Assembly (NCBI GenBank): GCA_028288625.1
Contig: JAQBNI010000145.1
Span: 16,963 to 80,962, forward strand
Direction of reading: 5' to 3'
Length of the DNA: 64,000 nucleotides
DNA from: Bacteroidota bacterium
GTDB taxonomy: Bacteria; Bacteroidota; Bacteroidia; Chitinophagales; JADIYW01
A program made the translations under genes and the position numbers. The notes under the pieces are model-generated. The model did no database searches. It was not told where the DNA came from and worked only from the letters and a program-made list of their open reading frames with translations. This document shows, piece by piece, positions 6,590 through 52,093 of the stretch. The number at the start of each line of letters is the position of its first letter. Position 1 is the stretch's first letter.

Positions 6590-8230
6590 ATGACGCATAA
6601 ATTTATAAAAAGGCAGCATCGCGCTATTATTATATCTTTAATAGTAGGTATATATTTTGTGTCTTGTTACCCGCTTTCCACCGGCGCAATAAAATGGCGG
6701 ATGAAATGGGATAAGAAATTAATTGCAGGGAAGAAAGATTATTTTTTTCATAAACCCGACTCGTGTACCGATGTTCCGAATATACTTTTAATTGTAGCAG
6801 ATGATCTCGGCATCAATGAAACCAGCTGTTATGCAAAGTCGCCGGTCGAAACGCCAAACATCGACAAGTTGGCGAAAGAAGGAATAAGATGCACGAACGG
6901 ATATGTATCTTCTCCGGTGTGCGCGCCTTCACGTTGCGGAATTTTAACTGGCAGATACCAGGAGCGCTGCGGTTTTGAAACACAGGAGATTGAATTTTAT
7001 CCCACTAATTTAATTGAATTTCTTACCGGGAAATATTTCTCTCAGAAAGACAGCTCATGGGTAGTATCCACGCATCCGCATTACCCGCGCGACTGGCAGA
7101 TCGATAAGCAGGGGATACCTCCTTCAGAAATTACTTTAGCAGAGCTTTTAAAAAAATATTGTTTTACGACGGGTATTGTGGGCAAATGGCATTTAGGTTA
7201 CAACAGCAGGTTTAATATTCCCACGAAGAGAGGTTTTGATTACCAGTATGGGTGTTATGGTGCATTTACTTTATATGCGGAAAAGGAGCACATGCCCGGT
7301 ATTGTAAATTTTAAAAGAGAATCTTTTGAATCGAAATACCAGTGGGCAATGGCGCGAAAGGACAATGCAATGCTTTATGAGAACAACAAAAAAATAAAAC
7401 ATGAGCATGAATATCTCACCGATGCTATTCGTGATAAGTCGATTGCGTTTATAGAAAAAAATAAAGACCGCCCGTTTTTTTTATATGTCCCGTTCACTGC
7501 ACCTCATGAGCCATACCAGGCTAAAAAAGAATTGTATGATGAAGAAATAAAAAATACTCCACATAGAGGAAAGGCGGTGTATTATGCGATCATTCGTTCT
7601 CTCGATAATGCCATTGGAGATATTATGCAGAAGCTAAAAGATTTGAACCTGGAAGAAAATACCATGGTGATTTTTTTAAGTGATAACGGCGCTGCAACCT
7701 ATACGAAGGTCGCTTCCAATGCTCCATTAAAAGGAGGCAAGCTAACACAGTTTGAAGGAGGAATTGATGTGCCGCTTATTTTTAAATGGAAAAATCATTT
7801 ACCGGCAAATACGGTTTACAGGAATAATGTTATAGCTCTGGATATTTTTACGACAGTGGCTGCTGCATGCAATATTCCCTTGCCATGCGACAGGATCTAT
7901 GACGGCGTAGATCTCATGCCGTATTTTTTAGACCAGAGAAAAGATCCGCCGCATGATAAATTGTTCTGGAGAGCCGATCATATTCATGTTATTATCAAAG
8001 GTGATTATAAGCTTATTTTCAGCTCGCGTGATAAATGGCTGGAGTTATACAATTTGAAAACAGATAAAAATGAAAAAGAAAATTTAAGTCAATCAATGCC
8101 GGAAAAAGTAAAAGAGCTGCAGGATGATATCCAGGTATGGGAAAAAACACTTCCTGTAAAACCGATGTGGCCGCGCATCATGGATCATCGTTTTATGATC
8201 GACGGAAAACAATATTTATTTCCGGTTTAA
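6590..8230 (+). CDS. sulfatase (arylsulfatase family)
   Basis: LLIVADDLG metal-site motif and the sulfatase signature C-A-P-S-R-C-G-I-L-T-G-R. Confidence 0.85.
   Translation: MTHKFIKRQHRAIIISLIVGIYFVSCYPLSTGAIKWRMKWDKKLIAGKKDYFFHKPDSCTDVPNILLIVADDLGINETSCYAKSPVETPNIDKLAKEGIRCTNGYVSSPVCAPSRCGILTGRYQERCGFETQEIEFYPTNLIEFLTGKYFSQKDSSWVVSTHPHYPRDWQIDKQGIPPSEITLAELLKKYCFTTGIVGKWHLGYNSRFNIPTKRGFDYQYGCYGAFTLYAEKEHMPGIVNFKRESFESKYQWAMARKDNAMLYENNKKIKHEHEYLTDAIRDKSIAFIEKNKDRPFFLYVPFTAPHEPYQAKKELYDEEIKNTPHRGKAVYYAIIRSLDNAIGDIMQKLKDLNLEENTMVIFLSDNGAATYTKVASNAPLKGGKLTQFEGGIDVPLIFKWKNHLPANTVYRNNVIALDIFTTVAAACNIPLPCDRIYDGVDLMPYFLDQRKDPPHDKLFWRADHIHVIIKGDYKLIFSSRDKWLELYNLKTDKNEKENLSQSMPEKVKELQDDIQVWEKTLPVKPMWPRIMDHRFMIDGKQYLFPV
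6920..6934 (+). other. formylglycine modification motif CAPSR of the sulfatase
   Basis: tgc gcg cct tca cgt, in frame at codon 111 of 6590..8230. Confidence 0.8.
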
Positions 8231-19074: not shown

Positions 19075-19122
19075 TATCATCCTGAACCAAGTCTACCGTC
19101 ATCCTGAACTTGTTTCAGGATC
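19075..19122 (+). repeat. REP (half copy plus full GTCATCCTGAACTTGTTTCAGGATC) at the left edge of the R-M island
   Basis: The half copy atcatcctgaacc is followed by the full copy at 19098-19122. Confidence 0.75.
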
Positions 19123-19208
19123 TAATAGAACAAAGAGAGATTTTCTTTCAAATCTGATACTATCTGTATGAAAAACTTTATCTTAATGGCTAAAGAGTTT
19201 AGCTGTAG

Positions 19209-19877
19209 ATGATCTTAAAAGAATTGAAGCCTAAAAAGGCATTAAACAAAGCTTTTTTAAAAGTAAAACCCAGCAGACCTCAAATTGAAGGTTTCAAGAA
19301 CAATCTTCTTAATTTACTTGACAGAACAAATGATAAGGAAAGCGAAGAGTTCCACAAAAATCTTGTCATCGACTTTTTAAAAAGAACTTACTACGATCCA
19401 AACCATTTTATAAATACCAAAGGTCGAAACGACCTTGTTATTCATAACGGCAACACAGCTAAAAGTTCTGTTGGTGTTATCGTTGAAGCGAAAAAGCCAA
19501 CAAACAAAATGGAAATGATAACTACTAAAAAACTGAACGCAAAAGCGTTTCAGGAATTAGTGTTATACTATTTACGTGAAAGGATTACACATAAGAACCT
19601 TGAAGTAAAATATTTGGTAATCACCAACATTAACGAATGGTTTATTTTTGATGCTGCCTTATTCGACAGGCTTTTTGCACAAAACAAAAACCTTGTAAAA
19701 CAATTCAATGACTTTGAAGACGGTCGATTGGCTGATATCAAAACCGATTTTTTCTACAGGCAAATTGCTGAACCGTTTATTGGTGGTATCACCTCAGAGA
19801 TTGAATTCACTACTTTAATCTTCAGGATTATCAAAAGCCACTTCGCAATTCTAATAAGGCAGATGATACTTTGTTGA
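19209..19877 (+). CDS. Type IIG restriction-modification enzyme, N-terminal nuclease-domain fragment (frameshifted from 19871..22987)
   Basis: PD-(D/E)xK-like motif (NDLVIHN ... VIVEAKKP). The last ~22 codons (TTLIFRIIKSHFAILIRQMILC) look like out-of-frame read-through. The next ORF's frame is open from 19805 and continues the expected sequence. Confidence 0.75.
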   Translation: MILKELKPKKALNKAFLKVKPSRPQIEGFKNNLLNLLDRTNDKESEEFHKNLVIDFLKRTYYDPNHFINTKGRNDLVIHNGNTAKSSVGVIVEAKKPTNKMEMITTKKLNAKAFQELVLYYLRERITHKNLEVKYLVITNINEWFIFDAALFDRLFAQNKNLVKQFNDFEDGRLADIKTDFFYRQIAEPFIGGITSEIEFTTLIFRIIKSHFAILIRQMILC

Positions 19878-22800
19878 TTGCCTTGTATAAATTGTTGTCG
19901 CCGGAGCATCTTTTAAAACTTCCCTTCATAAATGACAGCAACAGTCTCGACAAACGCTTTTATACGGAGCTGTTGCACATCATCGGTTTAACAGAAACCA
20001 AAGAAGGAGGCAAAAAATTGATTGACCGGAACAAACCGGGAGAAAGACATACAGGTACAATATTGGAAGATGCTATCATTCAATTGGACAGTCTGGATAA
20101 ATTAAGCCGACTGGATAAACCAAACCAGTTTGGTCATAGCACACAGGAACGCTTGTTCAATATTGCTTTGGAGCTTTCTATCACATGGATAAACCGCATT
20201 TTATTTTTAAAATTATTAGAAGCTCAGCTCATCACTTATCACAAAGACGATAAGTCCTATTCGTTTCTCAATCTTAATAAAATCAAGGAATATGATGACC
20301 TGAACAACTTGTTTTTCCAGGTATTAGCAAGAAAATATAATGAGAGAAATGAAGATGTTCAGAGGGCTTTTGAGAAAGTACCTTATCTGAATAGCTCTCT
20401 TTTCGAGCCGACAGAACTTGAGCAGGTTACTTTGTTTATCAGCAATTTGAAAGATCTAAAGACTATTCCGGTTATTTCATCAACTGTACTGAAAGATCAG
20501 CAAGGAAAAAAGCGGACAGGTAATATTTCTACACTTGAATATTTGTTTGAGTTCTTGAACGCTTACGATTTCAGCAGCGAAGGTTCGGAAGAAATTCAAG
20601 AAGATAACAAAACGCTTATCAATGCTTCGGTGCTTGGTTTGATTTTCGAAAAAATAAACGGTTATAAGGACGGCTCGTATTTCACTCCGGGTTTCATCAC
20701 CATGTACATGTGTCATGAAACGATCCGAAAAGCCGTTGTGCAGAAATTCAATGAAACTAAAAAATGGAACTGTAACACCGTTGAAGAACTTTACGACAAA
20801 ATTGAAAACCGTACGGAAGCCAATAGCATTGTAAATAGCATTAAAATTTGCGATCCTGCCGTTGGCTCTGGTCACTTTCTCGTTTCGGCTCTTAATGAAA
20901 TGATTGCCGTAAAAAACGACTTAAAAATTTTGCAGGATCGTCAAGGCAAGCGTCTTAAAGAATACCACATGGAAGTGGTAAATGATGAATTAATTGTGAC
21001 TGATGAAGAAGGAGAGTTATTCGAATATAATCCGACGAACAAAGAGAGTCAGCGCATACAGGAAACACTGTTTCATGAAAAGCAAACGATCATCGAAAAT
21101 TGTCTTTTCGGTGTAGATATTAATTCTAATTCTGTTAAGATTTGCCGTTTGCGTTTGTGGATCGAGCTGTTAAAACACGCTTATTACAAAAGTACCACAG
21201 AACTTGAAACACTTCCGAATATTGACATCAATATCAAATGCGGAAATTCCCTGGTAAGCCGTTTTGCAATTGATGCCGACCTGAAACATGCACTCAAAAA
21301 AAGTAAATGGACGGTGGAGAGCTACCAAATAGCCGTTGATACTTATCGGAATGCCGAAAGCAAGGGGCAGAAAAGAGAAATGGTTAAACTGATTGACGAT
21401 ATCAAATCGGATTTCAGGAGTGAAATTTCATCGAACGATCCGAAAGTCAAGAGGCTTTATAGTCTTAATGGGGAATTATTGAAAATGACAACTCAACATA
21501 GCCTTTTTGGAATGGATAAAAAGGAAAAAGCAGATTGGGAAAAAAAGGTGCAGCAACTCACTGTGGAAATAAAAAAATCGGAAGCCGAGATTGAAGAAAT
21601 AAAAGCGAATAAAATGTTTGAAAATGCTTTTGAATGGCGGTTTGAATTTCCGGAAGTGCTGAATGACGGGGGAGATTTTGCAGGCTTTGACGTGGTTATC
21701 GGAAATCCTCCATATGTGCAACTGCAAAAAATGGGACAGGATGGAATTGATTTAGAGAAAATGCGGTTTGAAACTTTTGCAAAAACCGGCGATATCTATA
21801 GTTTATTTTATGAATTAGGCTATCGAATACTTAAACCATCAGGTGTATTGACTTATATTACTTCTAATAAATGGATGAGAGCCGGTTATGGGGAAAGTAC
21901 CCGTAAGTTTTTTGCAGAAAAAACAAACCCGGTTTTATTGGTAGATTTTGCCGGAGCAAAAATATTTGATGAAGCTACGGTTGATACCAATATTTTAATG
22001 TTTGAAAAACAGCAAAATCAGCATAAAACATTTGCCTGTATTGCGAAGGAATTTAACGTGTTAAATAATTTGAGCGTTTTTGTTAAGCAGGAGGCTACTG
22101 TTTGCTCATTTTTAAAATCAGACAGTTGGGTTATACTTTCGGGTATAGAAAATCGAATAAAGGAAAAGATTGAAAGCATTGGAACGCCTCTAAAAAAATG
22201 GAACATACAAATAAACTATGGCATTAAAACAGGCTTTAATGAAGCCTTTATTATTGATGGTGAGAAACGTAAAGAGTTAATAGAACAAGATCCCAAAAGT
22301 GAAGAAATTATACGACCGATTCTTAGGGGACGTGATATAAAGCGGTATGGATATGATTTTGGAGATGTGTGGTTATTGTTTATTCCATGGCATTTTCCCT
22401 TACATAATGACCCTACAATTACAGGAGCATCAAGTAAAGCTGAAGATGCCTTTAAATCTCAATTTCCAGCAGTTTATAATCATTTAGTACAGCACAAAAC
22501 GGAACTATCAAATCGCAATAAAGCAGAGACTGGGATACGTTATGAATGGTATGCATTACAGCGTTGGGGAGCAAATTATTGGGAGGATTTTTCTAAACAA
22601 AAAATCATTTGGATTGAATTGGCTGACAAAGGACGATTTGCTCTCGATACACGAGATAATTATATTACTTTGAATGGAACATTTATCATGGTAGGATATG
22701 ATTTGGAATATTTATGTTGTGTATTAAATAATCCAATAACTAGCTGGCACTTTAATACCTTTTGTATCAGTTCTGGTGTTGGTACAAATCAATGGAGAGA

Positions 22801-22987
22801 ATTTTATGTAAAAGAACTCTTCATCCCAAAAGTCAATGAAACTAAGAAAAGGAACATTGTTTCTCAGTTCTCAGATTTAAAAAAAGATGAAGGCTTAACA
22901 GTCGCCAAACAAAGAATCCTGGATCATCAAATTTATTCATTGTTTAAGTTAACACAAGAAGAAATAGAGTTTATTGAATCTCAATAA
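19871..22987 (+). CDS. Type IIG restriction-modification enzyme, N6-adenine methyltransferase plus C-terminal TRD (Eco57I-like family)
   Basis: SAM motif I ICDPAVGSGHFLV and catalytic motif IV VVIGNPPYV. TaqI-like C-terminal specificity domain (GIKTGFNEAFIIDG, IIRPILRGRDIKRY). The track start is a TTG, and the frame is open upstream to 19805. Confidence 0.85.
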   Translation: MLIALYKLLSPEHLLKLPFINDSNSLDKRFYTELLHIIGLTETKEGGKKLIDRNKPGERHTGTILEDAIIQLDSLDKLSRLDKPNQFGHSTQERLFNIALELSITWINRILFLKLLEAQLITYHKDDKSYSFLNLNKIKEYDDLNNLFFQVLARKYNERNEDVQRAFEKVPYLNSSLFEPTELEQVTLFISNLKDLKTIPVISSTVLKDQQGKKRTGNISTLEYLFEFLNAYDFSSEGSEEIQEDNKTLINASVLGLIFEKINGYKDGSYFTPGFITMYMCHETIRKAVVQKFNETKKWNCNTVEELYDKIENRTEANSIVNSIKICDPAVGSGHFLVSALNEMIAVKNDLKILQDRQGKRLKEYHMEVVNDELIVTDEEGELFEYNPTNKESQRIQETLFHEKQTIIENCLFGVDINSNSVKICRLRLWIELLKHAYYKSTTELETLPNIDINIKCGNSLVSRFAIDADLKHALKKSKWTVESYQIAVDTYRNAESKGQKREMVKLIDDIKSDFRSEISSNDPKVKRLYSLNGELLKMTTQHSLFGMDKKEKADWEKKVQQLTVEIKKSEAEIEEIKANKMFENAFEWRFEFPEVLNDGGDFAGFDVVIGNPPYVQLQKMGQDGIDLEKMRFETFAKTGDIYSLFYELGYRILKPSGVLTYITSNKWMRAGYGESTRKFFAEKTNPVLLVDFAGAKIFDEATVDTNILMFEKQQNQHKTFACIAKEFNVLNNLSVFVKQEATVCSFLKSDSWVILSGIENRIKEKIESIGTPLKKWNIQINYGIKTGFNEAFIIDGEKRKELIEQDPKSEEIIRPILRGRDIKRYGYDFGDVWLLFIPWHFPLHNDPTITGASSKAEDAFKSQFPAVYNHLVQHKTELSNRNKAETGIRYEWYALQRWGANYWEDFSKQKIIWIELADKGRFALDTRDNYITLNGTFIMVGYDLEYLCCVLNNPITSWHFNTFCISSGVGTNQWREFYVKELFIPKVNETKKRNIVSQFSDLKKDEGLTVAKQRILDHQIYSLFKLTQEEIEFIESQ
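22073..22085 (+). repeat. left copy of the 13-bp inverted repeat AGCGTTTTTGTTA (candidate inversion crossover site)
   Basis: Encodes S-V-F-V in frame in the Type IIG gene. The exact reverse complement lies at 23804..23816 in the same codon phase of the silent cassette. Confidence 0.6.
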
Positions 22988-23002
22988 ATTCTATTTCTTC
23001 TT
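22956..23002. repeat. 22-bp imperfect inverted repeat (1 mismatch, 3-nt spacer) at the tail-to-tail junction; possible bidirectional terminator hairpin
   Basis: aagaagaaatagagtttattga atc tcaataaattctatttcttctt. Both arms encode the shared C-terminus EEIEFIE.Q-stop of the two TRDs. Confidence 0.7.
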
Positions 23003-23819
23003 TAGATAAACCATAAAGCGTATATACTAATTTATCAATTTTCTTTTCATAAGTTGGGGAAATGTCATCCTCTAAAAATGATGTGAATTGATTTTGTTCT
23101 AATTCAGAAATTTTTGGAACTGGTAGTTGCTCAATAAACATTGGTTTGTACTCAAAGTAACCTCCATTTCTTGTTACTCCTAATTTTCTTATATAATAAT
23201 CACCTACTTTAGAATTAAGGATTGTCAAAAGATATTTATTTGCGGGAACAATCATTGGACAAGGAGCACTCACAAAAACGCCTTCGGGAGCTATAGAATA
23301 AGACGCTTTCAAGTTTAAATTCCCCCACACTATTTTTTGTTTAGAAAAATCCTCCATATATGCACAGTTCCGCAAATTGTAAGGTGTTTCACCTTTATCC
23401 GCGCGTTTTTCCAATTCAGGATAGAACTGGTCAAGATGTTTTTTGATAGCAGGATAATCGGCTATACTTATAGGTTTTATTCCCTTTTCCTTTGTGCCAT
23501 TGTGCGTATTTATAAGCCACAAATCCGCAAAATCGTATACATATCTTTTTATGTCCCTGCCGCGTAAAATAGGTCGTATAATCTCAGCTGATTTTGGATC
23601 GATCGCTATGAGTTCATCTTTTTTCTTGCCGTCAATAATAAATGCTTCGTTATAACCAGTCAGAATTCCTCGATAAATATTAATATCCCAATCTTTCAAG
23701 GGGATTCCGACAGCTTCGATCTTTGCTTTAATACCTTGTTCAAGAGGTGATAAAATCCCCCAACTATCCTTTCTATTGAAACTGTATATAGATGCAAATT
23801 GCCTAACAAAAACGCTGGA
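22971..23819 (-). CDS. silent alternative TRD cassette: 5'-truncated, start-less copy of the Type IIG C-terminal specificity domain
   Basis: The frame is open from 23819 (in-frame TAA at 23820-23822) with no ATG; the track ORF 22971..23699 begins at an internal TTG. SVFVRQFASIYSFNRKDSWGILSPLEQGIKAKIEAVGIPLKDWDINIYRGILTGYNEAFIIDG aligns with residues SVFVKQEATVCSFLKSDSWVILSGIENRIKEKIESIGTPLKKWNIQINYGIKTGFNEAFIIDG of the main gene. Confidence 0.75.
   Translation of the reverse strand, partial: SSVFVRQFASIYSFNRKDSWGILSPLEQGIKAKIEAVGIPLKDWDINIYRGILTGYNEAFIIDGKKKDELIAIDPKSAEIIRPILRGRDIKRYVYDFADLWLINTHNGTKEKGIKPISIADYPAIKKHLDQFYPELEKRADKGETPYNLRNCAYMEDFSKQKIVWGNLNLKASYSIAPEGVFVSAPCPMIVPANKYLLTILNSKVGDYYIRKLGVTRNGGYFEYKPMFIEQLPVPKISELEQNQFTSFLEDDISPTYEKKIDKLVYTLYGLSKEEIEFIEIQ
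23804..23816 (-). repeat. right copy of the 13-bp inverted repeat AGCGTTTTTGTTA
   Basis: taacaaaaacgct on the plus strand. It lies at the exact 5' limit of cassette homology, one codon from the in-frame stop. Confidence 0.6.
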
Positions 23820-23821
23820 TT

Positions 23822-23859
23822 AGTGTATAAAAAAATTGACTAGGTTTTCATTATACACT
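23822..23859. promoter_or_regulatory. 38-bp palindromic site (AGTGTATAA-N20-TTATACACT) between cassette edge and recombinase gene
   Basis: Perfect 9-bp arms. It lies 5 bp from the right IR copy and 47 bp upstream of the recombinase ATG. It may be a recombinase-binding or operator site. Confidence 0.35.
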
Positions 23860-23906
23860 TTCTGTTTAATTTAAACATTTTAATTAACCACTTAAACCTA
23901 AAAATT

Positions 23907-24512
23907 ATGATTTACGGCTATATCCGCGTAAGCACCGACAAACAAACAGTAGAAAACCAACGCTATGAACTTAATCAGTTTTGCCAAAAACAAATTCTGG
24001 TTATAGACAAATGGATTGATGAAACTATTTCAGGTTCAAAAAACCTGCAAGAAAGAAAACTGGGAAAACTCCTTAAAAAAATGAGAAAAGGAGATGTTCT
24101 TATCTGTTCCGAACTCTCACGACTTGGAAGAAACCTTTTGATGATTATGGGCATTCTTAATGAATGTATGAACCGCGATATTCAAGTATGGACTATTAAA
24201 GACAATTACCGTTTAGGAAGTGATATTAACTCCAAGGTATTGGCTTTTGCATTTGGTCTGTCAGCCGAAATTGAACGCAACCTTATTTCTCAAAGAACCA
24301 AGGAAGCACTAGCACGTAAAAAAGCAGAGGGAGTTATACTTGGTCGTCCAAAAGGCAGAAAATCTTCTAAAACAAAACTTACCGGGCAAGAGAAAAAGAT
24401 CCGGGAATTCTTAGACAGAAAAGTTTCTTATTCAGCTATTGGCAGGATTTTAGGTGTGCATCGGCTGACAGTAAGCAGTTTTGTGAATGGAGAAAAATTT
24501 AGTGTGTCATAA
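23907..24512 (+). CDS. small serine recombinase (resolvase/invertase family)
   Basis: MIYGYIRVSTDKQ with catalytic Ser9, SRLGRN, the E-helix AEIERNLISQRTKEAL, and a C-terminal HTH (SYSAIGRILGVHRLTV). Confidence 0.9.
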   Translation: MIYGYIRVSTDKQTVENQRYELNQFCQKQILVIDKWIDETISGSKNLQERKLGKLLKKMRKGDVLICSELSRLGRNLLMIMGILNECMNRDIQVWTIKDNYRLGSDINSKVLAFAFGLSAEIERNLISQRTKEALARKKAEGVILGRPKGRKSSKTKLTGQEKKIREFLDRKVSYSAIGRILGVHRLTVSSFVNGEKFSVS

Positions 24513-24525
24513 AATTAAAGGATAA

Positions 24526-24550
24526 GGATTCTGAATCAGTTCAGGATGAC
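24526..24550 (-). repeat. REP GTCATCCTGAAC..TTCAGAATCC (reverse orientation) at the right edge of the R-M island
   Basis: Sequence is ggattctgaatcagttcaggatgac. Confidence 0.75.
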
Positions 24551-24559
24551 ACAGTTAAT

Positions 24560-24670
24560 GCATTAGGGATAGAAGCGGAAACAGCGTTGAAGCGGATAGC
24601 CCGACCGCGTTTGTGGCTTGTGAGTAGGCGACGCGGGAATGCCATAATAGTGAAAGTGAGAATGAAAGTG
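24560..24670 (-). repeat. second copy of the ~110-nt dispersed element, inverted relative to 11690..11812
   Basis: gcattagggatagaagcg...gaagcggatagcccgaccgcg...acgcgggaatgcc...gtgaaagtgagaatgaaagtg. Confidence 0.75.
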
Positions 24671-24727
24671 ATTAAGTATTCACATGGATTCTCTTTAGGT
24701 TAAGAGTGCGTAGGAATAAACTTTATA

Positions 24728-24752
24728 GATCCCAAATCAAGTTTGGGATGAC
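24728..24752 (-). repeat. REP variant GTCATCCCAAACTTGATTTGGGATC (reverse orientation)
   Basis: gatcccaaatcaagtttgggatgac, just downstream of the panB stop. Confidence 0.75.
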
Positions 24753-24761
24753 GGTAGTCTG

Positions 24762-50326: not shown

Positions 50327-52093
50327 TCATTCAACCTTCATCTTATTAATTCTCTTGCTTGAAAAAAACGTTTGCTTTTTTATTTCTTCTTCCGTAAATA
50401 TTTCAGGATGTACGCCATTTTCCGGCGATCTCGAAATTTCCGGTTTGCAAAATTCATTTGCAAGTTCCGTATATTTTTGCTGGAGAGCATTTAAACTATA
50501 TTGACCAAAAACATTATGTCCGCCTTCATACAACTGCAGCTGGTATTCTTCGTAAGTAGTGATATAACCGTTGTATTCATTGGCATATGGTGCGAGGATC
50601 ACATCATCGATTCCCTTAGGTTTTAAAGCTTCTTCCAGCGTTTTCTTTAATCGCCATGAAGCAACAGTGGTGATCTCAAACGGAAGAGAGCAAATAGCAA
50701 CTGAACCTAATTGTAAGATCTGTAAAGTGAGCACTTGCGGCGCCCATGGATTCAAAGAATCAAATCCACCCTGCTTCGCCATTTTTTTTATATTCAATAT
50801 CATCTCATCGGAAAAAGATGGCAATGGAATTTTTCCTGCATCAAAATTTCCTAAAAATTTTCTCTCACCGGTTGCAGCGCCGATATCTTTTACAGCCTGC
50901 GCTTTATTTTTTCGTTCAATAAATCTGGCATAATCTCCGCCTTCTTTAAGCGCTCTTTTTAATTCTTTATGACGTGTGGCGCGCGCTATCCTTCTTGCCA
51001 CTGCGCCAAGAAATGTTGGCAATCCCGGACCATCCATGATAGAGCCTTCAAGAAATGAAATGCCCATGCAGGATGGACTGGTAACGCATCCGGTTTCACC
51101 ATTTGTAAATTTCGGATCGATATTTATATTTCCAAAATCCAAAAACATGGAAATAGAATCTATCGTTTCATTTTTTATTTCTTGTATTGATGAATCGATG
51201 ATCTCTTTTGCTTTTTCGAATTGCAGATTACCGTTGAACTTAGAACTTTTCAAATCATCAGGAAAAAAGCCCTCCCATTTTCCACGGGCTGTCGGAAGTT
51301 TTGCGTTGTATTTTACACGCGCTGAAACATCGCCGCATGCACCTTGTGCAAAAGCAGCAACATATGACGGGTTATCCTTCGTAAAACTTTCTTCGAGATA
51401 AGTCGCAGCAAATCCTTTATTGTCCGAGCATAATTTAAAAAAGGTATTCGGAAGGTTAGAAGTATGCACTGCAAACCAGTTGATAGAACCCATCGGTTCA
51501 CCGCTTTCAGAAATAAAATGTAAAAGTGTCATTTCCCTGTCTACTGCGAGATGCCGGGTTTCATGCGAATATTTTTTCACTTCCGGGTTGAGGTTATAAG
51601 CGTCAACGGTTCGGTTAAAACTTACAGGTATGTCGGGTGAAAAAGTGCTTTTACCGATATGAATTTTTCCTTTCTTTTTATTTTTTTCCGCTTCCAAGAT
51701 CGCTTCTGTAATGCCGCTCACCACTTTATCATAAACTCCTTTGTGAAATCCGGGAGTCGACATATTGTAAATAACATGATACGAAAATCCGCTCGGTCCG
51801 CAATGGGTATGCTGTGCGCTCAGCAACAGGTTTTCCGTATCGTATTGTAATTCAGGATAATTTTTCTGTAAATATGCGAGTACGCCTTGTTTCAAAGAAG
51901 GTGTAATAAATCCAAGCTCGCAGTTCACCATGCAAACCTTTCGGCTTTTATCGAGCTGCTCAAAAACAAATGCCCGGGCGTACAAAGGTGTTTCTACATC
52001 GAGGGCATAATGGGTGGGCAAACCGTATCCCAATAAGCCCGTTCCTTTAAAAAATGCGGTGATATCACCTTTTCCCGTACCAATGAATAACAT
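50327..52093 (-). CDS. neutral/alkaline non-lysosomal ceramidase-like hydrolase
   Basis: N-terminal G.G..DIT...G....GY pattern and the SAQHTHCGPSG motif; about 590 aa. No signal peptide was seen. Confidence 0.55.
   Translation of the reverse strand: MLFIGTGKGDITAFFKGTGLLGYGLPTHYALDVETPLYARAFVFEQLDKSRKVCMVNCELGFITPSLKQGVLAYLQKNYPELQYDTENLLLSAQHTHCGPSGFSYHVIYNMSTPGFHKGVYDKVVSGITEAILEAEKNKKKGKIHIGKSTFSPDIPVSFNRTVDAYNLNPEVKKYSHETRHLAVDREMTLLHFISESGEPMGSINWFAVHTSNLPNTFFKLCSDNKGFAATYLEESFTKDNPSYVAAFAQGACGDVSARVKYNAKLPTARGKWEGFFPDDLKSSKFNGNLQFEKAKEIIDSSIQEIKNETIDSISMFLDFGNINIDPKFTNGETGCVTSPSCMGISFLEGSIMDGPGLPTFLGAVARRIARATRHKELKRALKEGGDYARFIERKNKAQAVKDIGAATGERKFLGNFDAGKIPLPSFSDEMILNIKKMAKQGGFDSLNPWAPQVLTLQILQLGSVAICSLPFEITTVASWRLKKTLEEALKPKGIDDVILAPYANEYNGYITTYEEYQLQLYEGGHNVFGQYSLNALQQKYTELANEFCKPEISRSPENGVHPEIFTEEEIKKQTFFSSKRINKMKVE

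What the first reader, a model, noticed from the sequence alone, without database searches (positions are those of the whole stretch)
19209..24512. Type IIG R-M gene with an inverted silent TRD cassette and adjacent serine recombinase: candidate specificity-switching shufflon
Seen: the nuclease (D..EAK), methylase (DPAVGSGHF, GNPPY) and TaqI-like TRD modules lie in one gene line at 19209-22987. On the opposite strand, tail-to-tail, frame 23819->22971 is open but has no ATG and no upstream coding context. It is a paralog of only the last ~300 residues of the enzyme. The two copies are similar at the TRD entry (SVFV.Q...SF.(K/R).DSW.ILS...GI.TG.NEAFIIDG...IIRPILRGRDIKRY) and at the C-terminus (EEIEFIE.Q-stop), and different in between, where specificity should reside. 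A 201-aa serine recombinase gene starts ~90 bp beyond the cassette edge (207 bp beyond the track ORF start at 23699). Established: Type I hsdS genes are diversified this way by site-specific inversion, and small serine invertases drive inversions in Bacteroidota. Inference: inversion of ~1.7 kb would fuse the alternative TRD in frame to the constant part, giving two DNA specificities from one Type IIG locus. I know of no well-characterised example for this enzyme class.
Basis: partly seen in the sequence, partly recalled or inferred. Interest (0 to 1): 0.85.

Follow-up and report, generated by a model that had tools for sequence, protein, structure and literature searches.

The report
Invertible specificity cassette on Type IIG gene
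This is a restriction-modification gene built so that a neighbouring DNA invertase can flip in a spare DNA-recognition module. It is real and well conserved, but this kind of switch has been described since 2021-2025, and the enzyme gene here carries a frameshift.

Summary
The three-part layout is real. A Type IIG gene (19209-22987, +) lies tail-to-tail with a start-less, stop-free paralog of its last ~280 codons (22971-23819, -). An Mpi-family serine invertase gene (23907-24512, +) starts 90 bp beyond it.

It splits the enzyme into a 222-aa nuclease ORF and a 1038-aa methylase-TRD ORF, and an independent assembly shows it too.

There are two inverted-repeat pairs, not one. The entry pair is 22073-22089 / 23800-23816 and the mid-TRD pair is 22582-22605 / 23332-23355. 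All four predicted arrangements stay in frame.

Both repeats match nucleotide motifs conserved across dozens of homologous loci whose recombinases are 67-91% identical. Silent cassettes elsewhere are under purifying selection (dN/dS about 0.06). Near-identical metagenome contigs carry the same TRD in the active or the silent position.

So the inference of a specificity shufflon holds for the family. For this strain only one orientation is seen, and the entry sites are partly degenerate.

The class is already published: Milman 2023 (long-read validated, Mpi-family neighbours enriched) and a 2025 B. fragilis Type IIG study. This is a new member of a known kind, of modest interest.

The parts
19209..19877 (+). 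ORF1: N-terminal PD-(D/E)xK nuclease domain (DUF7149) of the Type IIG enzyme. It ends early after about 22 out-of-frame codons.
   Evidence: Pfam DUF7149 E=1e-87, profile positions 1-203 of 239. PADLOC IIG model positions 4-185.
19808..19813 (+). Frameshift site: a 1-nt deletion in a non-repetitive context (CAC^TAC).
   Evidence: DNA and protein alignment with five intact orthologues. Also present in independent contig L168.
19871..22987 (+). ORF2, with its frame open from 19805. It holds the helical DUF7814, the Eco57I-type gamma N6-adenine methylase (DPAVGSGHF, GNPPY) and the expressed TRD-A. The TTG at 19874-76 overlaps the ORF1 stop TGA at 19875-77.
   Evidence: Pfam. PADLOC IIG model positions 204-1245, 807 bits. 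CamA, BseCI and M.TaqI are the nearest solved structures.
22073..22096 (+). Entry recombination site, active arm: AGCGTTTTTGT-TA-AGCAGGAGGCT. The left half and the central TA match the family consensus; the right half has diverged.
   Evidence: Inverted repeat I8. Family consensus AGCGTTTTTGTTAGACAAAACGCT; arm identity starts exactly at AGCG in 24 loci.
22582..22605 (+). Mid-TRD recombination site, active arm: GGAGGATTTTTCTAAACAAAAAAT (codes EDFSKQKI).
   Evidence: 24/24 identical to its partner. One mismatch to the family motif GGAsGATTTTTCTAAACAGAAAAT, which is a perfect 24-37 bp repeat in many loci.
22956..23002 (.). Tail-to-tail 47-nt palindrome (89%). It holds both conserved C-termini (EEIEFIE.Q) and the 17-nt overlap of the two stop regions (22971-22987).
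   Evidence: The same overlap is seen in L001 and L006.
22971..23819 (-). Silent cassette TRD-B: 282 sense codons with no start codon at its head. It ends at the entry site, with a stop codon immediately upstream.
   Evidence: The top 120 homologues are stand-alone 240-430 aa TaqI_C ORFs.
23332..23355 (-). Mid-TRD recombination site, cassette arm.
23551..23582 (-). Third family site type (RPILRGRD position, ATTATACGACCTATTTTACGCGGCAGGGACAT). It is intact only in the cassette. The active copy at 22307-22338 diverges after 11 nt, so no usable pair exists here.
   Evidence: Read from the sequence. Motif seen in L016, L033, L045, L066 and L002. 11-nt run.
23793..23816 (-). Entry recombination site, cassette arm: AGCGTTTTTGT-TA-GGCAATTTGCA.
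23817..23906 (.). 90-bp spacer between the cassette edge and the recombinase ATG. It contains a site-like motif, TCAATTTTTTTATACA (23824-23839, minus strand), that recurs in related loci. It presumably holds the recombinase promoter.
   Evidence: Spacing of 83-102 bp is conserved in most loci. Flank alignment. The promoter role is inferred; the sigma-70 scan was uninformative.
23907..24512 (+). 201-aa serine recombinase of the Mpi family: Resolvase catalytic domain with Ser9 in YIRVSTDKQ, plus a C-terminal HTH.
   Evidence: NCBIfam NF009949, 344 bits against a cutoff of 272. Pfam Resolvase E=1e-35. Gin invertase 4M6F E=5e-15. 87-89% identical to the cassette-linked recombinases of L001 and L006.

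Best explanation
This is a solitary Type IIG restriction-modification gene with a serine-invertase-driven specificity shufflon.

Layout (shown):
- The constant part (nuclease, helical domain, gamma-class adenine methylase) ends at a 24-bp recombination site placed at the boundary between the catalytic domain and the TRD.
- A second, promoter-less and start-less TRD lies tail-to-tail downstream. It ends in the same site in inverted orientation, 90 bp from the gene of an Mpi-family serine recombinase.

Switching (inferred):
- The recombinase exchanges strands at the central TA of the entry sites (22084-85 and 23804-05). This flips 22086-23803 and puts TRD-B in frame behind the methylase.
- A second pair of sites inside the TRD (22582-22605 and 23332-23355, 24/24 identical) allows the C-terminal half of the TRD alone to be swapped.
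- Four in-frame enzymes are therefore possible. By homology with CamA, the two halves read different parts of the target sequence, so hybrids should have hybrid specificities.

What is shown: the anatomy, the in-frame products, conservation of the sites and of the recombinase, and inversion polymorphism with purifying selection in relatives.

What is inferred: that this copy still inverts, and that the variants differ in the sequence they recognise.

In this strain a 1-nt deletion uncouples the nuclease domain. Restriction is therefore probably off. The locus is either a recently inactivated system or, at best, a methylase-only switch.
For: Anatomy:
- Domain content.
- The open, start-less cassette ends exactly at the repeat.
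- All four inversion products are in frame (1038, 1015, 1031, 1022 aa) and the silent frame stays open in each.

Family conservation:
- Cassette relatives are overwhelmingly stand-alone TaqI_C ORFs.
- Spirosoma, Treponema and a JGI contig all have the trio of Eco57I-family enzyme, tail-to-tail cassette and ~200-aa resolvase.
- Their recombinases are 65-89% identical to this one.
- Of 46 recombinase loci from other genomes with enough flank, 31 carry such a cassette.

Sites:
- Arm identity begins exactly at AGCG, 83-102 bp from the recombinase ATG in most loci. The consensus is the near-palindrome AGCGTTTTTGT-TA-GACAAAACGCT.
- Nearly the same site flanks unrelated Type I hsdS cassettes (L050, L052). 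It therefore reflects a DNA signal and not only a coding constraint.
- The mid motif is a perfect 24-37 bp repeat in many loci.

Inversion in relatives:
- L012 against L010: 1297 bp at 95.7% identity in inverted orientation, with the breakpoint at the AGCG edge.
- L126/L127 show a reciprocal swap. L147/L148 are 100% identical over 3.1 kb, flanked by either the recombinase or the methylase. L119/L121 and L116/L117 behave likewise.

Selection: silent cassettes of L010 and L022 give pN 0.045, pS 0.478 and dN/dS 0.06.

Structure mapping: the entry site aligns to the end of the CamA catalytic domain. CamA base contacts lie on both sides of the mid-site equivalent (PMC8187626).

Literature: PMC9881135, PMC13064476 and PMC11741434.
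Against: - No inverted form of this locus was found. Logan contig L087 (SRR13312994) matches 22014-24749 at 100% in the same orientation and runs unbroken through all four repeat arms.
- The predicted flipped entry junction has no match in JGI metagenomes. Neither of the look-ups made here for two of this locus's proteins turned up the strain in JGI data, so this is weak evidence.
- The entry arms are identical for only 13 nt and their inner half-sites differ (about 5 of 11). Most relatives keep 17-45+ identical nt.
- Taken alone, the repeats in this locus are only modestly beyond chance (P = 0.018 for the 24-mer).
- The frameshift suggests the system may be decaying.
- The same recombinase lineage also sits beside housekeeping genes with no local repeat in 11 loci. 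Adjacency alone therefore does not prove it is dedicated to this locus.
Confidence: 0.75

Rival explanations
1. Fossil shufflon. The locus has the architecture of the invertible class but no longer switches or functions in this strain. The enzyme is a pseudogene, the entry sites are too degenerate, and the orientation is fixed.
For: - 1-nt frameshift confirmed in two assemblies.
- Entry arms are only 13 nt identical, with divergent inner half-sites, against 17-45+ nt in most relatives.
- The RPILRGRD site has lost its partner.
- Only one orientation was seen.
Against: - ORF2 (1038 codons), the cassette (282 codons) and the recombinase are all free of further stops or shifts, so any inactivation is recent.
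- The mid repeat is still 24/24.
- A few other loci also have imperfect entry arms (L011, L024, L028, L078).
Confidence: 0.3
2. Decayed second R-M gene. The cassette is the 3' remnant of an independent convergent Type IIG gene that lost its 5' part, with no role in switching.
For: It is a paralog of only the C-terminal ~280 residues and has no start codon.
Against: - The truncation point is the same in dozens of loci and coincides with the recombination site.
- Cassettes are intact ORFs under purifying selection, dN/dS 0.06.
- Near-identical cassettes occur in both active and silent positions.
- None of the orthologous loci inspected shows a complete second gene.
Confidence: 0.03
3. The recombinase is the genome's general (master) Mpi invertase or part of another element. 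It acts on distant promoters, and its position next to the cassette is incidental.
For: - It scores as Mpi family.
- The same lineage occurs beside arginase, GPDH, MetH and similar genes with no local inverted repeat in 11 of 46 loci, and beside SusC pairs.
Against: - The 90-bp spacing to the site and the divergent orientation match the conserved module seen in 31 loci.
- The site next to it is the family consensus.
- No other copy of either site exists in the 64-kb window.
- No transposase or integrase lies nearby; the flanking genes are housekeeping.
- It may still act in trans elsewhere, which this analysis cannot exclude.
Confidence: 0.07
4. Diversification occurs by homologous recombination or gene conversion between the two TRD copies, not by site-specific inversion.
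For: Some relatives have 249-486 bp perfect repeats that RecA could use.
Against: - Here the identical stretches are 13 and 24 nt. By general knowledge that is too short for efficient RecA-dependent exchange.
- The boundaries are sharp and sit at a conserved motif shared with unrelated target genes.
Confidence: 0.05
5. The cassette is expressed as a free-standing TRD protein, for example as a specificity or regulatory subunit.
For: - It is annotated as a CDS in many genomes.
- In Treponema-type loci it overlaps the recombinase stop codon on the same strand.
Against: - There is no start codon at its head in the window or in most relatives.
- To my knowledge no function is known for a TaqI_C domain without its methylase.
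- The same cassettes are found fused in other contigs.
Confidence: 0.03

Closest known systems
Programmed inversions in Type II/IIG R-M enzymes homologous to C. jejuni Cj0031 (Milman, Yelin & Kishony 2023, NAR; PMC9881135), including a 'solitary Type II R-M CDS' locus (NZ_CP082886.1)
   Same: - A long Eco57I-family enzyme gene paired with a short inverted pseudogene-like copy of its 3' part.
- Inverted repeats and an adjacent recombinase.
[quoted passage not shown]
- Coexisting variants were shown by long reads.
   Different: - Those exact loci could not be fetched, so sequence-level orthology is untested.
- The window's gene is frameshifted.
- No read-level evidence exists for this strain.
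Bacteroides fragilis Type IIG phase-variable regions PVR2 and PVR3 (PMC13064476, 2025)
   Same: TRD-encoding sequence of a single-chain Type IIG enzyme is inverted through 1 or 2 pairs of inverted repeats, giving 2 or 4 genotypes. The two-pair case matches the two repeat pairs found here.
   Different: - Different organism.
- Sequence relationship not tested.
- Inversions were observed experimentally there, not here.
Type I hsdS shufflons (S. pneumoniae SpnD39III/ivr, B. fragilis, Mycoplasma; PMC7672463, PMC7641763)
   Same: Silent, promoter-less specificity modules are swapped into an expressed gene by inversion at repeats inside the coding sequence. Sub-domain shuffling multiplies the specificities.
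   Different: - In those systems the target is a separate HsdS subunit with two TRDs. Here the TRD is fused to the methylase (and, originally, the nuclease) in one polypeptide.
- By recollection, most Type I systems use tyrosine recombinases. However, L050 and L052 show this serine recombinase lineage with hsdS cassettes too.
BREX type 1 PglX inversion (Lacticaseibacillus rhamnosus GG; cited as Goldfarb 2015 and analysed in PMC9881135)
   Same: An Eco57I-like adenine methylase whose recognition region is swapped by inversion with a truncated copy next to a recombinase.
   Different: - The window protein scores far below the PglX cutoffs (86 bits against 500).
- No brx or pglZ genes are nearby.
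- In PglX a middle segment is swapped by two nested inversions.
Mpi of Bacteroides fragilis and Hin/Gin DNA invertases
   Same: - A small serine recombinase (Resolvase domain plus HTH).
- NCBIfam places it in the Mpi family.
- The consensus site is a ~24-bp imperfect palindrome with T-rich half-sites, reminiscent of hix/gix half-sites (GGTTTTTGATAA, from my recollection).
   Different: - By recollection, Mpi flips promoters at many distant loci through ARACGTWCGT-type repeats. Here the sites lie inside a coding sequence next to the gene.
- No enhancer or Fis dependence is known or tested.
Cj0031/Cj0032 of Campylobacter jejuni (Type IIG, poly-G phase variation; PMC4889913)
   Same: A phase-variable single-chain Type IIG enzyme that alters methylation patterns.
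   Different: Cj0031 switches ON/OFF by slippage in a homopolymer. Here the specificity module itself is exchanged. The frameshift in the window is not in a repeat tract.

Membership tests
Inversion-switched Eco57I-family / Type IIG R-M loci (Milman 2023 class b) | Long target gene encoding an Eco57I-type N6-adenine methylase with a fused TaqI_C-type TRD | tested here: met
   Pfam Eco57I E=3e-42 and TaqI_C E=2e-8. PADLOC REase_MTase_IIG 807 bits.
Inversion-switched Eco57I-family / Type IIG R-M loci (Milman 2023 class b) | Short, inverted, start-less paralog of the 3' (TRD) part of the gene (gene/pseudogene size asymmetry) | tested here: met
   282-codon open frame with TaqI_C only, 43% aa identity to the last ~300 residues.
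Inversion-switched Eco57I-family / Type IIG R-M loci (Milman 2023 class b) | Inverted repeats bounding the variable segment, placed so that inversion keeps the reading frame | tested here: met
   Entry pair 16/17 (13 perfect) and mid pair 24/24. All products are in frame. The repeats are shorter than in most relatives.
Inversion-switched Eco57I-family / Type IIG R-M loci (Milman 2023 class b) | Adjacent site-specific recombinase | tested here: met
   Mpi-family serine recombinase 90 bp from the cassette edge.
Inversion-switched Eco57I-family / Type IIG R-M loci (Milman 2023 class b) | Coexistence of alternative orientations within a population | tested here: inconclusive
   For this strain, the window and one Logan contig show the same orientation, and the flipped junction is absent from JGI contigs. 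In homologous loci both orientations occur.
Type IIG restriction enzyme (single polypeptide with nuclease, methylase and TRD) | Nuclease and methylase-TRD in one continuous reading frame | tested here: not met
   A 1-nt deletion at ~19811 separates ORF1 from ORF2. By homology it is a disrupted Type IIG gene.
Type IIG restriction enzyme (single polypeptide with nuclease, methylase and TRD) | Endonuclease and methyltransferase activity on an asymmetric site | not testable with these tools
   Needs a methylome or biochemistry.
Mpi-family serine DNA invertase (NCBIfam NF009949) | Score above the curated cutoff over the full length; Resolvase catalytic domain with the nucleophilic serine | tested here: met
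   344 bits against 272, residues 1-196. Pfam Resolvase residues 2-143. Ser9 in YIRVSTDKQ read from the sequence.
Mpi-family serine DNA invertase (NCBIfam NF009949) | Acts globally on many invertible promoter regions | not tested
   Only 64 kb of the genome is available. No other copy of either site occurs in the window.
BREX (PglX) | PglX-level similarity and neighbouring brxA/B/C, pglZ and brxL genes | tested here: not met
   86 bits against a cutoff of 500. Neighbours are an amidotransferase, a DUF3575 protein, PanB and a 2OG oxygenase.
Type I R-M hsdS shufflon | Separate HsdS (Methylase_S) genes with HsdM and HsdR | tested here: not met
   No Methylase_S domain; the TRD is of TaqI_C type and fused to the methylase.

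The most novel reading that the evidence does not exclude
Three linked readings are not excluded.
1. The ~200-aa recombinase and its ~24-bp T-rich pseudo-palindromic site form a portable cassette-switch module that has spread across phyla. The module is written into the coding sequence of unrelated targets: Type IIG TRDs, Type I HsdS, a methylase at its motif IV, and SusC pairs.
2. Within the TaqI_C-type TRD, nested sites (entry, RPILRGRD, mid) cut the domain between the part that reads the distal base pairs and the part that reads those next to the target adenine. A single-chain enzyme could then produce hybrid specificities.
3. In this strain the frameshift would turn the system into a restriction-less, specificity-switching methylase (a phasevarion) re-initiated at the TTG that overlaps the ORF1 stop.
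Probability: 0.2. Interest if true: 0.5.

Novelty: new member of a known kind. Interest (0 to 1): 0.3.

Why it matters
Switching the recognition module of a restriction-modification enzyme changes two things at once: which phage DNA is cut, and which sites in the host genome are methylated. It is therefore both a bet-hedging defence and a possible global epigenetic switch.

This locus adds one more example, probably inactivated, to a class already shown to be widespread in Bacteroidota.

The useful by-products of this analysis are:
- a nucleotide-level consensus for the recombination sites of this recombinase lineage;
- the observation that a second site splits the TRD into two reading modules;
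- natural contig pairs that document the inversion.

All three would help annotate such loci and help design inversion or methylome experiments.

Tried and rejected
- Flipped entry junction: an exact search of JGI metagenome contigs gave 0 hits. This says little, because neither look-up made here for two of this locus's proteins found the strain in JGI data.
- Exact look-ups of the window's recombinase and ORF1 found only two short Logan contigs from SRR13312994, both in the window's arrangement.
- Further targets of the recombinase in the 64-kb window: the 17-mer gave one 3-mismatch hit at 50356, at chance level and with no inverted partner. The 24-bp consensus and the mid motif hit nothing else.
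- Sigma-70 promoter scan: 24 hits against 20.1 expected, so uninformative. Bacteroidota promoters are not covered by the scan.
- The 35-nt inverted repeat flanking the whole block (19090-19124 / 24726-24760) is not an island boundary. It is a dispersed REP-like hairpin found at six places in the window.
- BREX, DISARM and Type I membership were considered and rejected.
- A clean dyad in the window's own entry sites was looked for by eye. Only the left half and the central TA fit the family palindrome.
- Structure prediction was not run, because the alignment to CamA already gave the domain mapping.

Full report
**What is in the sequence**

On the plus strand, ORF1 (19209-19877, 222 aa) is a DUF7149 domain carrying the D...EAK nuclease motif. 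ORF2 (19871-22987, 1038 aa) carries DUF7814, an Eco57I-type methylase (DPAVGSGHF, GNPPY) and a TaqI_C recognition domain. Together they cover positions 4-185 and 204-1245 of the 1247-position PADLOC Type IIG model PDLC03612.

On the minus strand, the frame from 23819 to 22971 is open for 282 codons. It starts right after a stop codon and has no start codon at its head: the first TTG is at codon 40 and the first ATG at codon 154. It matches only TaqI_C. It aligns with the last ~300 residues of ORF2 at 43% amino-acid and 54% nucleotide identity. High similarity is confined to the TRD entry, GxxTGxNEAFIIDG, IIRPILRGRDIKRY, EDFSKQKI and the C-terminal EEIEFIE.Q.

A 201-aa gene at 23907-24512 encodes a serine recombinase. 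It scores 344 bits against the NCBIfam Mpi-family model (cutoff 272), and its nearest solved relative is Gin invertase. The flanking genes are housekeeping: an amidotransferase, a DUF3575 protein, panB and a 2OG oxygenase. The system is therefore solitary, and not BREX or DISARM.

The enzyme is not one reading frame. Alignment with five intact orthologues shows a single-base deletion at about 19811 (GAATTCAC^TACTTT), outside any homopolymer. An independently assembled Logan contig from SRR13312994 differs from the window by one SNP. It carries the same 222-aa ORF1 with no gap, so the shift is real and not an assembler artefact.

ORF2 has no ATG near its start. Only a TTG overlaps the ORF1 stop (TTGTTGA). 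The nuclease domain is uncoupled from the rest, and whether ORF2 is translated at all is unknown.

**The repeats**

The locus has four inverted pairs.
- The entry pair is 22073-22089 / 23800-23816: 13 nt perfect, 16 of 17 overall.
- A 16/17 pair lies at EAFIID.
- The mid-TRD pair, 22582-22605 / 23332-23355, is perfect at 24/24.
- A 47-nt palindrome is formed where the two C-termini and stop codons overlap (22956-23002).

Inverting between the entry arms, between the mid arms, or both gives in-frame products of 1015, 1031 and 1022 aa. The silent frame stays open in every state.

Taken alone, these repeats are only modestly beyond chance. With both protein sequences held fixed and synonymous codons resampled, a perfect run of 24 or more occurs in 1.8% of trials. 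A 13-nt run is unremarkable.

**Comparative evidence**

The 120 best relatives of the cassette among 5.8 billion proteins are almost all stand-alone TaqI_C ORFs of about 240-430 aa. They come from Spirosoma, Pedobacter, Chryseobacterium, Cytophagales and Treponema, among others. In each context examined, the ORF lies tail-to-tail with an Eco57I-family enzyme and next to a ~200-aa resolvase. Those recombinases are 87%, 89% and 65% identical to the window's.

A scan of one genome per species with the recombinase alignment found more than 577 relatives, of which the best 80 (67-91% identical) were kept. Most are from Bacteroidota. Others come from Acidobacteriota, Verrucomicrobiota, Planctomycetota, Campylobacteraceae and other groups. 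Of the 46 loci with at least 2.6 kb upstream, 31 have an Eco57I-type TRD cassette in the same divergent position. Twenty-four of the 80 contigs end within 600 bp upstream of the recombinase. That is what long or heterogeneous repeats do to assemblies.

**The sites**

In 24 loci where both arms are available, identity between the arms starts exactly at AGCG, with 0-2 nt of identity outward. It runs 17 to more than 45 nt inward in most loci. The cassette arm lies 83-102 bp from the recombinase ATG in most loci.

The consensus, AGCGTTTTTGT-TA-GACAAAACGCT, is a 24-bp imperfect palindrome. That is the form expected of a serine-recombinase crossover site. Nearly the same sequence (GGGCGTTTGTTTTTGACAA) bounds Type I hsdS cassettes next to the same recombinase in Capnocytophaga. 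It is therefore a DNA signal and not merely a by-product of coding S-V-F-V-R-Q.

The mid motif, GGAsGATTTTTCTAAACAGAAAAT, is a perfect 24-37 bp repeat in many loci and is itself a T5-N7-A5 pseudo-palindrome. A third site type at RPILRGRD is used in loci with shorter cassettes.

In the window:
- The left half-site and central TA of the entry site are intact in both arms, but the inner half-sites differ.
- The mid pair is perfect.
- The RPILRGRD site survives only in the cassette.

**Do such loci invert?**

- L012 aligns to L010 over 1297 bp at 95.7% identity in the opposite orientation relative to the recombinase. The breakpoint is at the AGCG edge.
- Among metagenome contigs retrieved with the cassette, four groups of TRDs at 95% nucleotide identity or more occur in the active position in one contig and the silent position in another.
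- L126/L127 show the reciprocal swap, with the constant gene at 97% and the invertible segment at 99.8% identity.
- L147/L148 share 3.1 kb at 100% identity, flanked on one side by either the recombinase or the methylase.
- Silent cassettes are intact in most complete loci and evolve under purifying selection: L010 against L022 gives pN 0.045, pS 0.478 and dN/dS 0.06. That makes sense only if they are periodically expressed.

**This strain**

Only the reference arrangement is seen. Logan contig L087 equals window 22014-24749 at 100% and passes through all four arms without a break. The predicted flipped junction is absent from JGI contigs.

**How it most likely works**

The alignment to CamA (PDB 7LNI, E = 3e-18) places the entry site about 20 residues before the linker between the catalytic domain and the TRD, which is at CamA residue 320.

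CamA residues that contact base pairs 1-3 are N346, I349, R425, Q438, W439 and R441; they align upstream of the mid site. Those that contact base pairs 4-6 are Y455, K456, S472, A473, S514, I517 and Y521; they align downstream of it (PMC8187626).

By inference, inversion at the entry site swaps the whole reader, while inversion at the mid site swaps only the half next to the target adenine. This gives up to four specificities. It matches the report of one or two repeat pairs giving two or four genotypes in B. fragilis Type IIG systems (PMC13064476).

**Novelty**

The class is published.
- Milman et al. 2023 predicted more than 11,000 gene-altering inversions and singled out Type II R-M enzymes as a major target.
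- They validated 11 such loci with long reads, including Cj0031 (Type IIG) homologues that are solitary or paired with PLD-SNF2 or DUF1016 genes.
- They found Mpi-family serine recombinases strongly enriched as neighbours (odds ratio 16, P = 8e-48).
- Earlier hints came from BREX PglX and from B. intestinalis (refs 42 and 26 in that paper).
- Later work shows methylome consequences in gut Bacteroidales (PMC11741434).

The window's locus is therefore a new, and probably crippled, member of a known kind. The site consensus, its sharing with hsdS cassettes and the mapping of the two TRD modules are refinements I did not find in the papers searched. I did not read their supplements.

Noticed in passing
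window 19808-19813 and 19871-19877: A 1-nt deletion splits the Type IIG gene. The ORF1 stop (TGA, 19875-77) overlaps a TTG (19874-76) in the ORF2 frame, which could allow termination-reinitiation. ORF2 has no other disruption over 1038 codons.
   Followed up: partly
window 11883, 14713, 19076, 19098, 24539, 40536 (also 19090-19124 / 24726-24760): A dispersed REP-like hairpin element (GTCATCCTGAAC...GTTCAGGAT) occurs 6 times against 0.19 expected. Copies flank the R-M/recombinase block on both sides, and a Logan contig ends inside one.
   Followed up: partly
L050 5568-5609 / 6902-6943; L052; L068: The same recombinase lineage sits 57-100 bp from a Type I hsdS (Methylase_S) cassette. The cassette is bounded by a 20-53 bp repeat whose core (GGGCGTTTGTTTTTGACAA) resembles the Type IIG entry site. 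This points to one recombinase and site serving two unrelated specificity genes.
   Followed up: partly
L080 3237-6188 and 7099-10065: A recombinase of this lineage lies between two divergent SusC/TonB-receptor genes that share a 1.1-kb inverted repeat at 75% identity. It looks like an outer-membrane-receptor shufflon.
   Followed up: no
L074 4241-4301 / 6894-6954: Here the repeat next to the recombinase lies at the methylase motif IV (IGNPPY). The silent cassette (451 codons) would therefore replace part of the catalytic domain as well as the TRD.
   Followed up: no
L009, L027, L042, L046, L048, L051, L060, L063, L069, L082, L083: Eleven loci carry a 70-88% identical recombinase beside housekeeping or unrelated genes (arginase, GPDH, a collagen-like protein, a cellulase, a radical SAM enzyme, PfkB, MetH). 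No local repeat that looks like a recombination site was seen. These may be trans-acting 'master' invertases.
   Followed up: partly
window 23824-23839 (minus strand); equivalent position in about 20 related loci: A motif resembling the crossover half-site (GCATTTTTTTATGCA; in the window TCAATTTTTTTATACA) lies 8-25 nt outside the cassette arm, toward the recombinase gene. It could be an accessory or autoregulatory binding site, or part of the promoter.
   Followed up: no
L007-L086: 24 of 80 genome contigs end within 600 bp upstream of the recombinase start, often inside a partial TRD. Assemblies break systematically at these shufflons.
   Followed up: partly
L147 4499-7931: A multi-cassette version. 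Three TRD segments lie between the recombinase and the methylase, with a ~3.2-kb invertible block. L148 has the opposite arrangement at 100% identity.
   Followed up: partly
L002-L005 7369-8855: In Treponema-type loci the recombinase is co-directional with the silent cassette and its stop codon overlaps the cassette ORF start (ATGA). The enzyme there is a methylase paired with RhuM and a PLD-SNF2 helicase rather than a single-chain nuclease-methylase.
   Followed up: no
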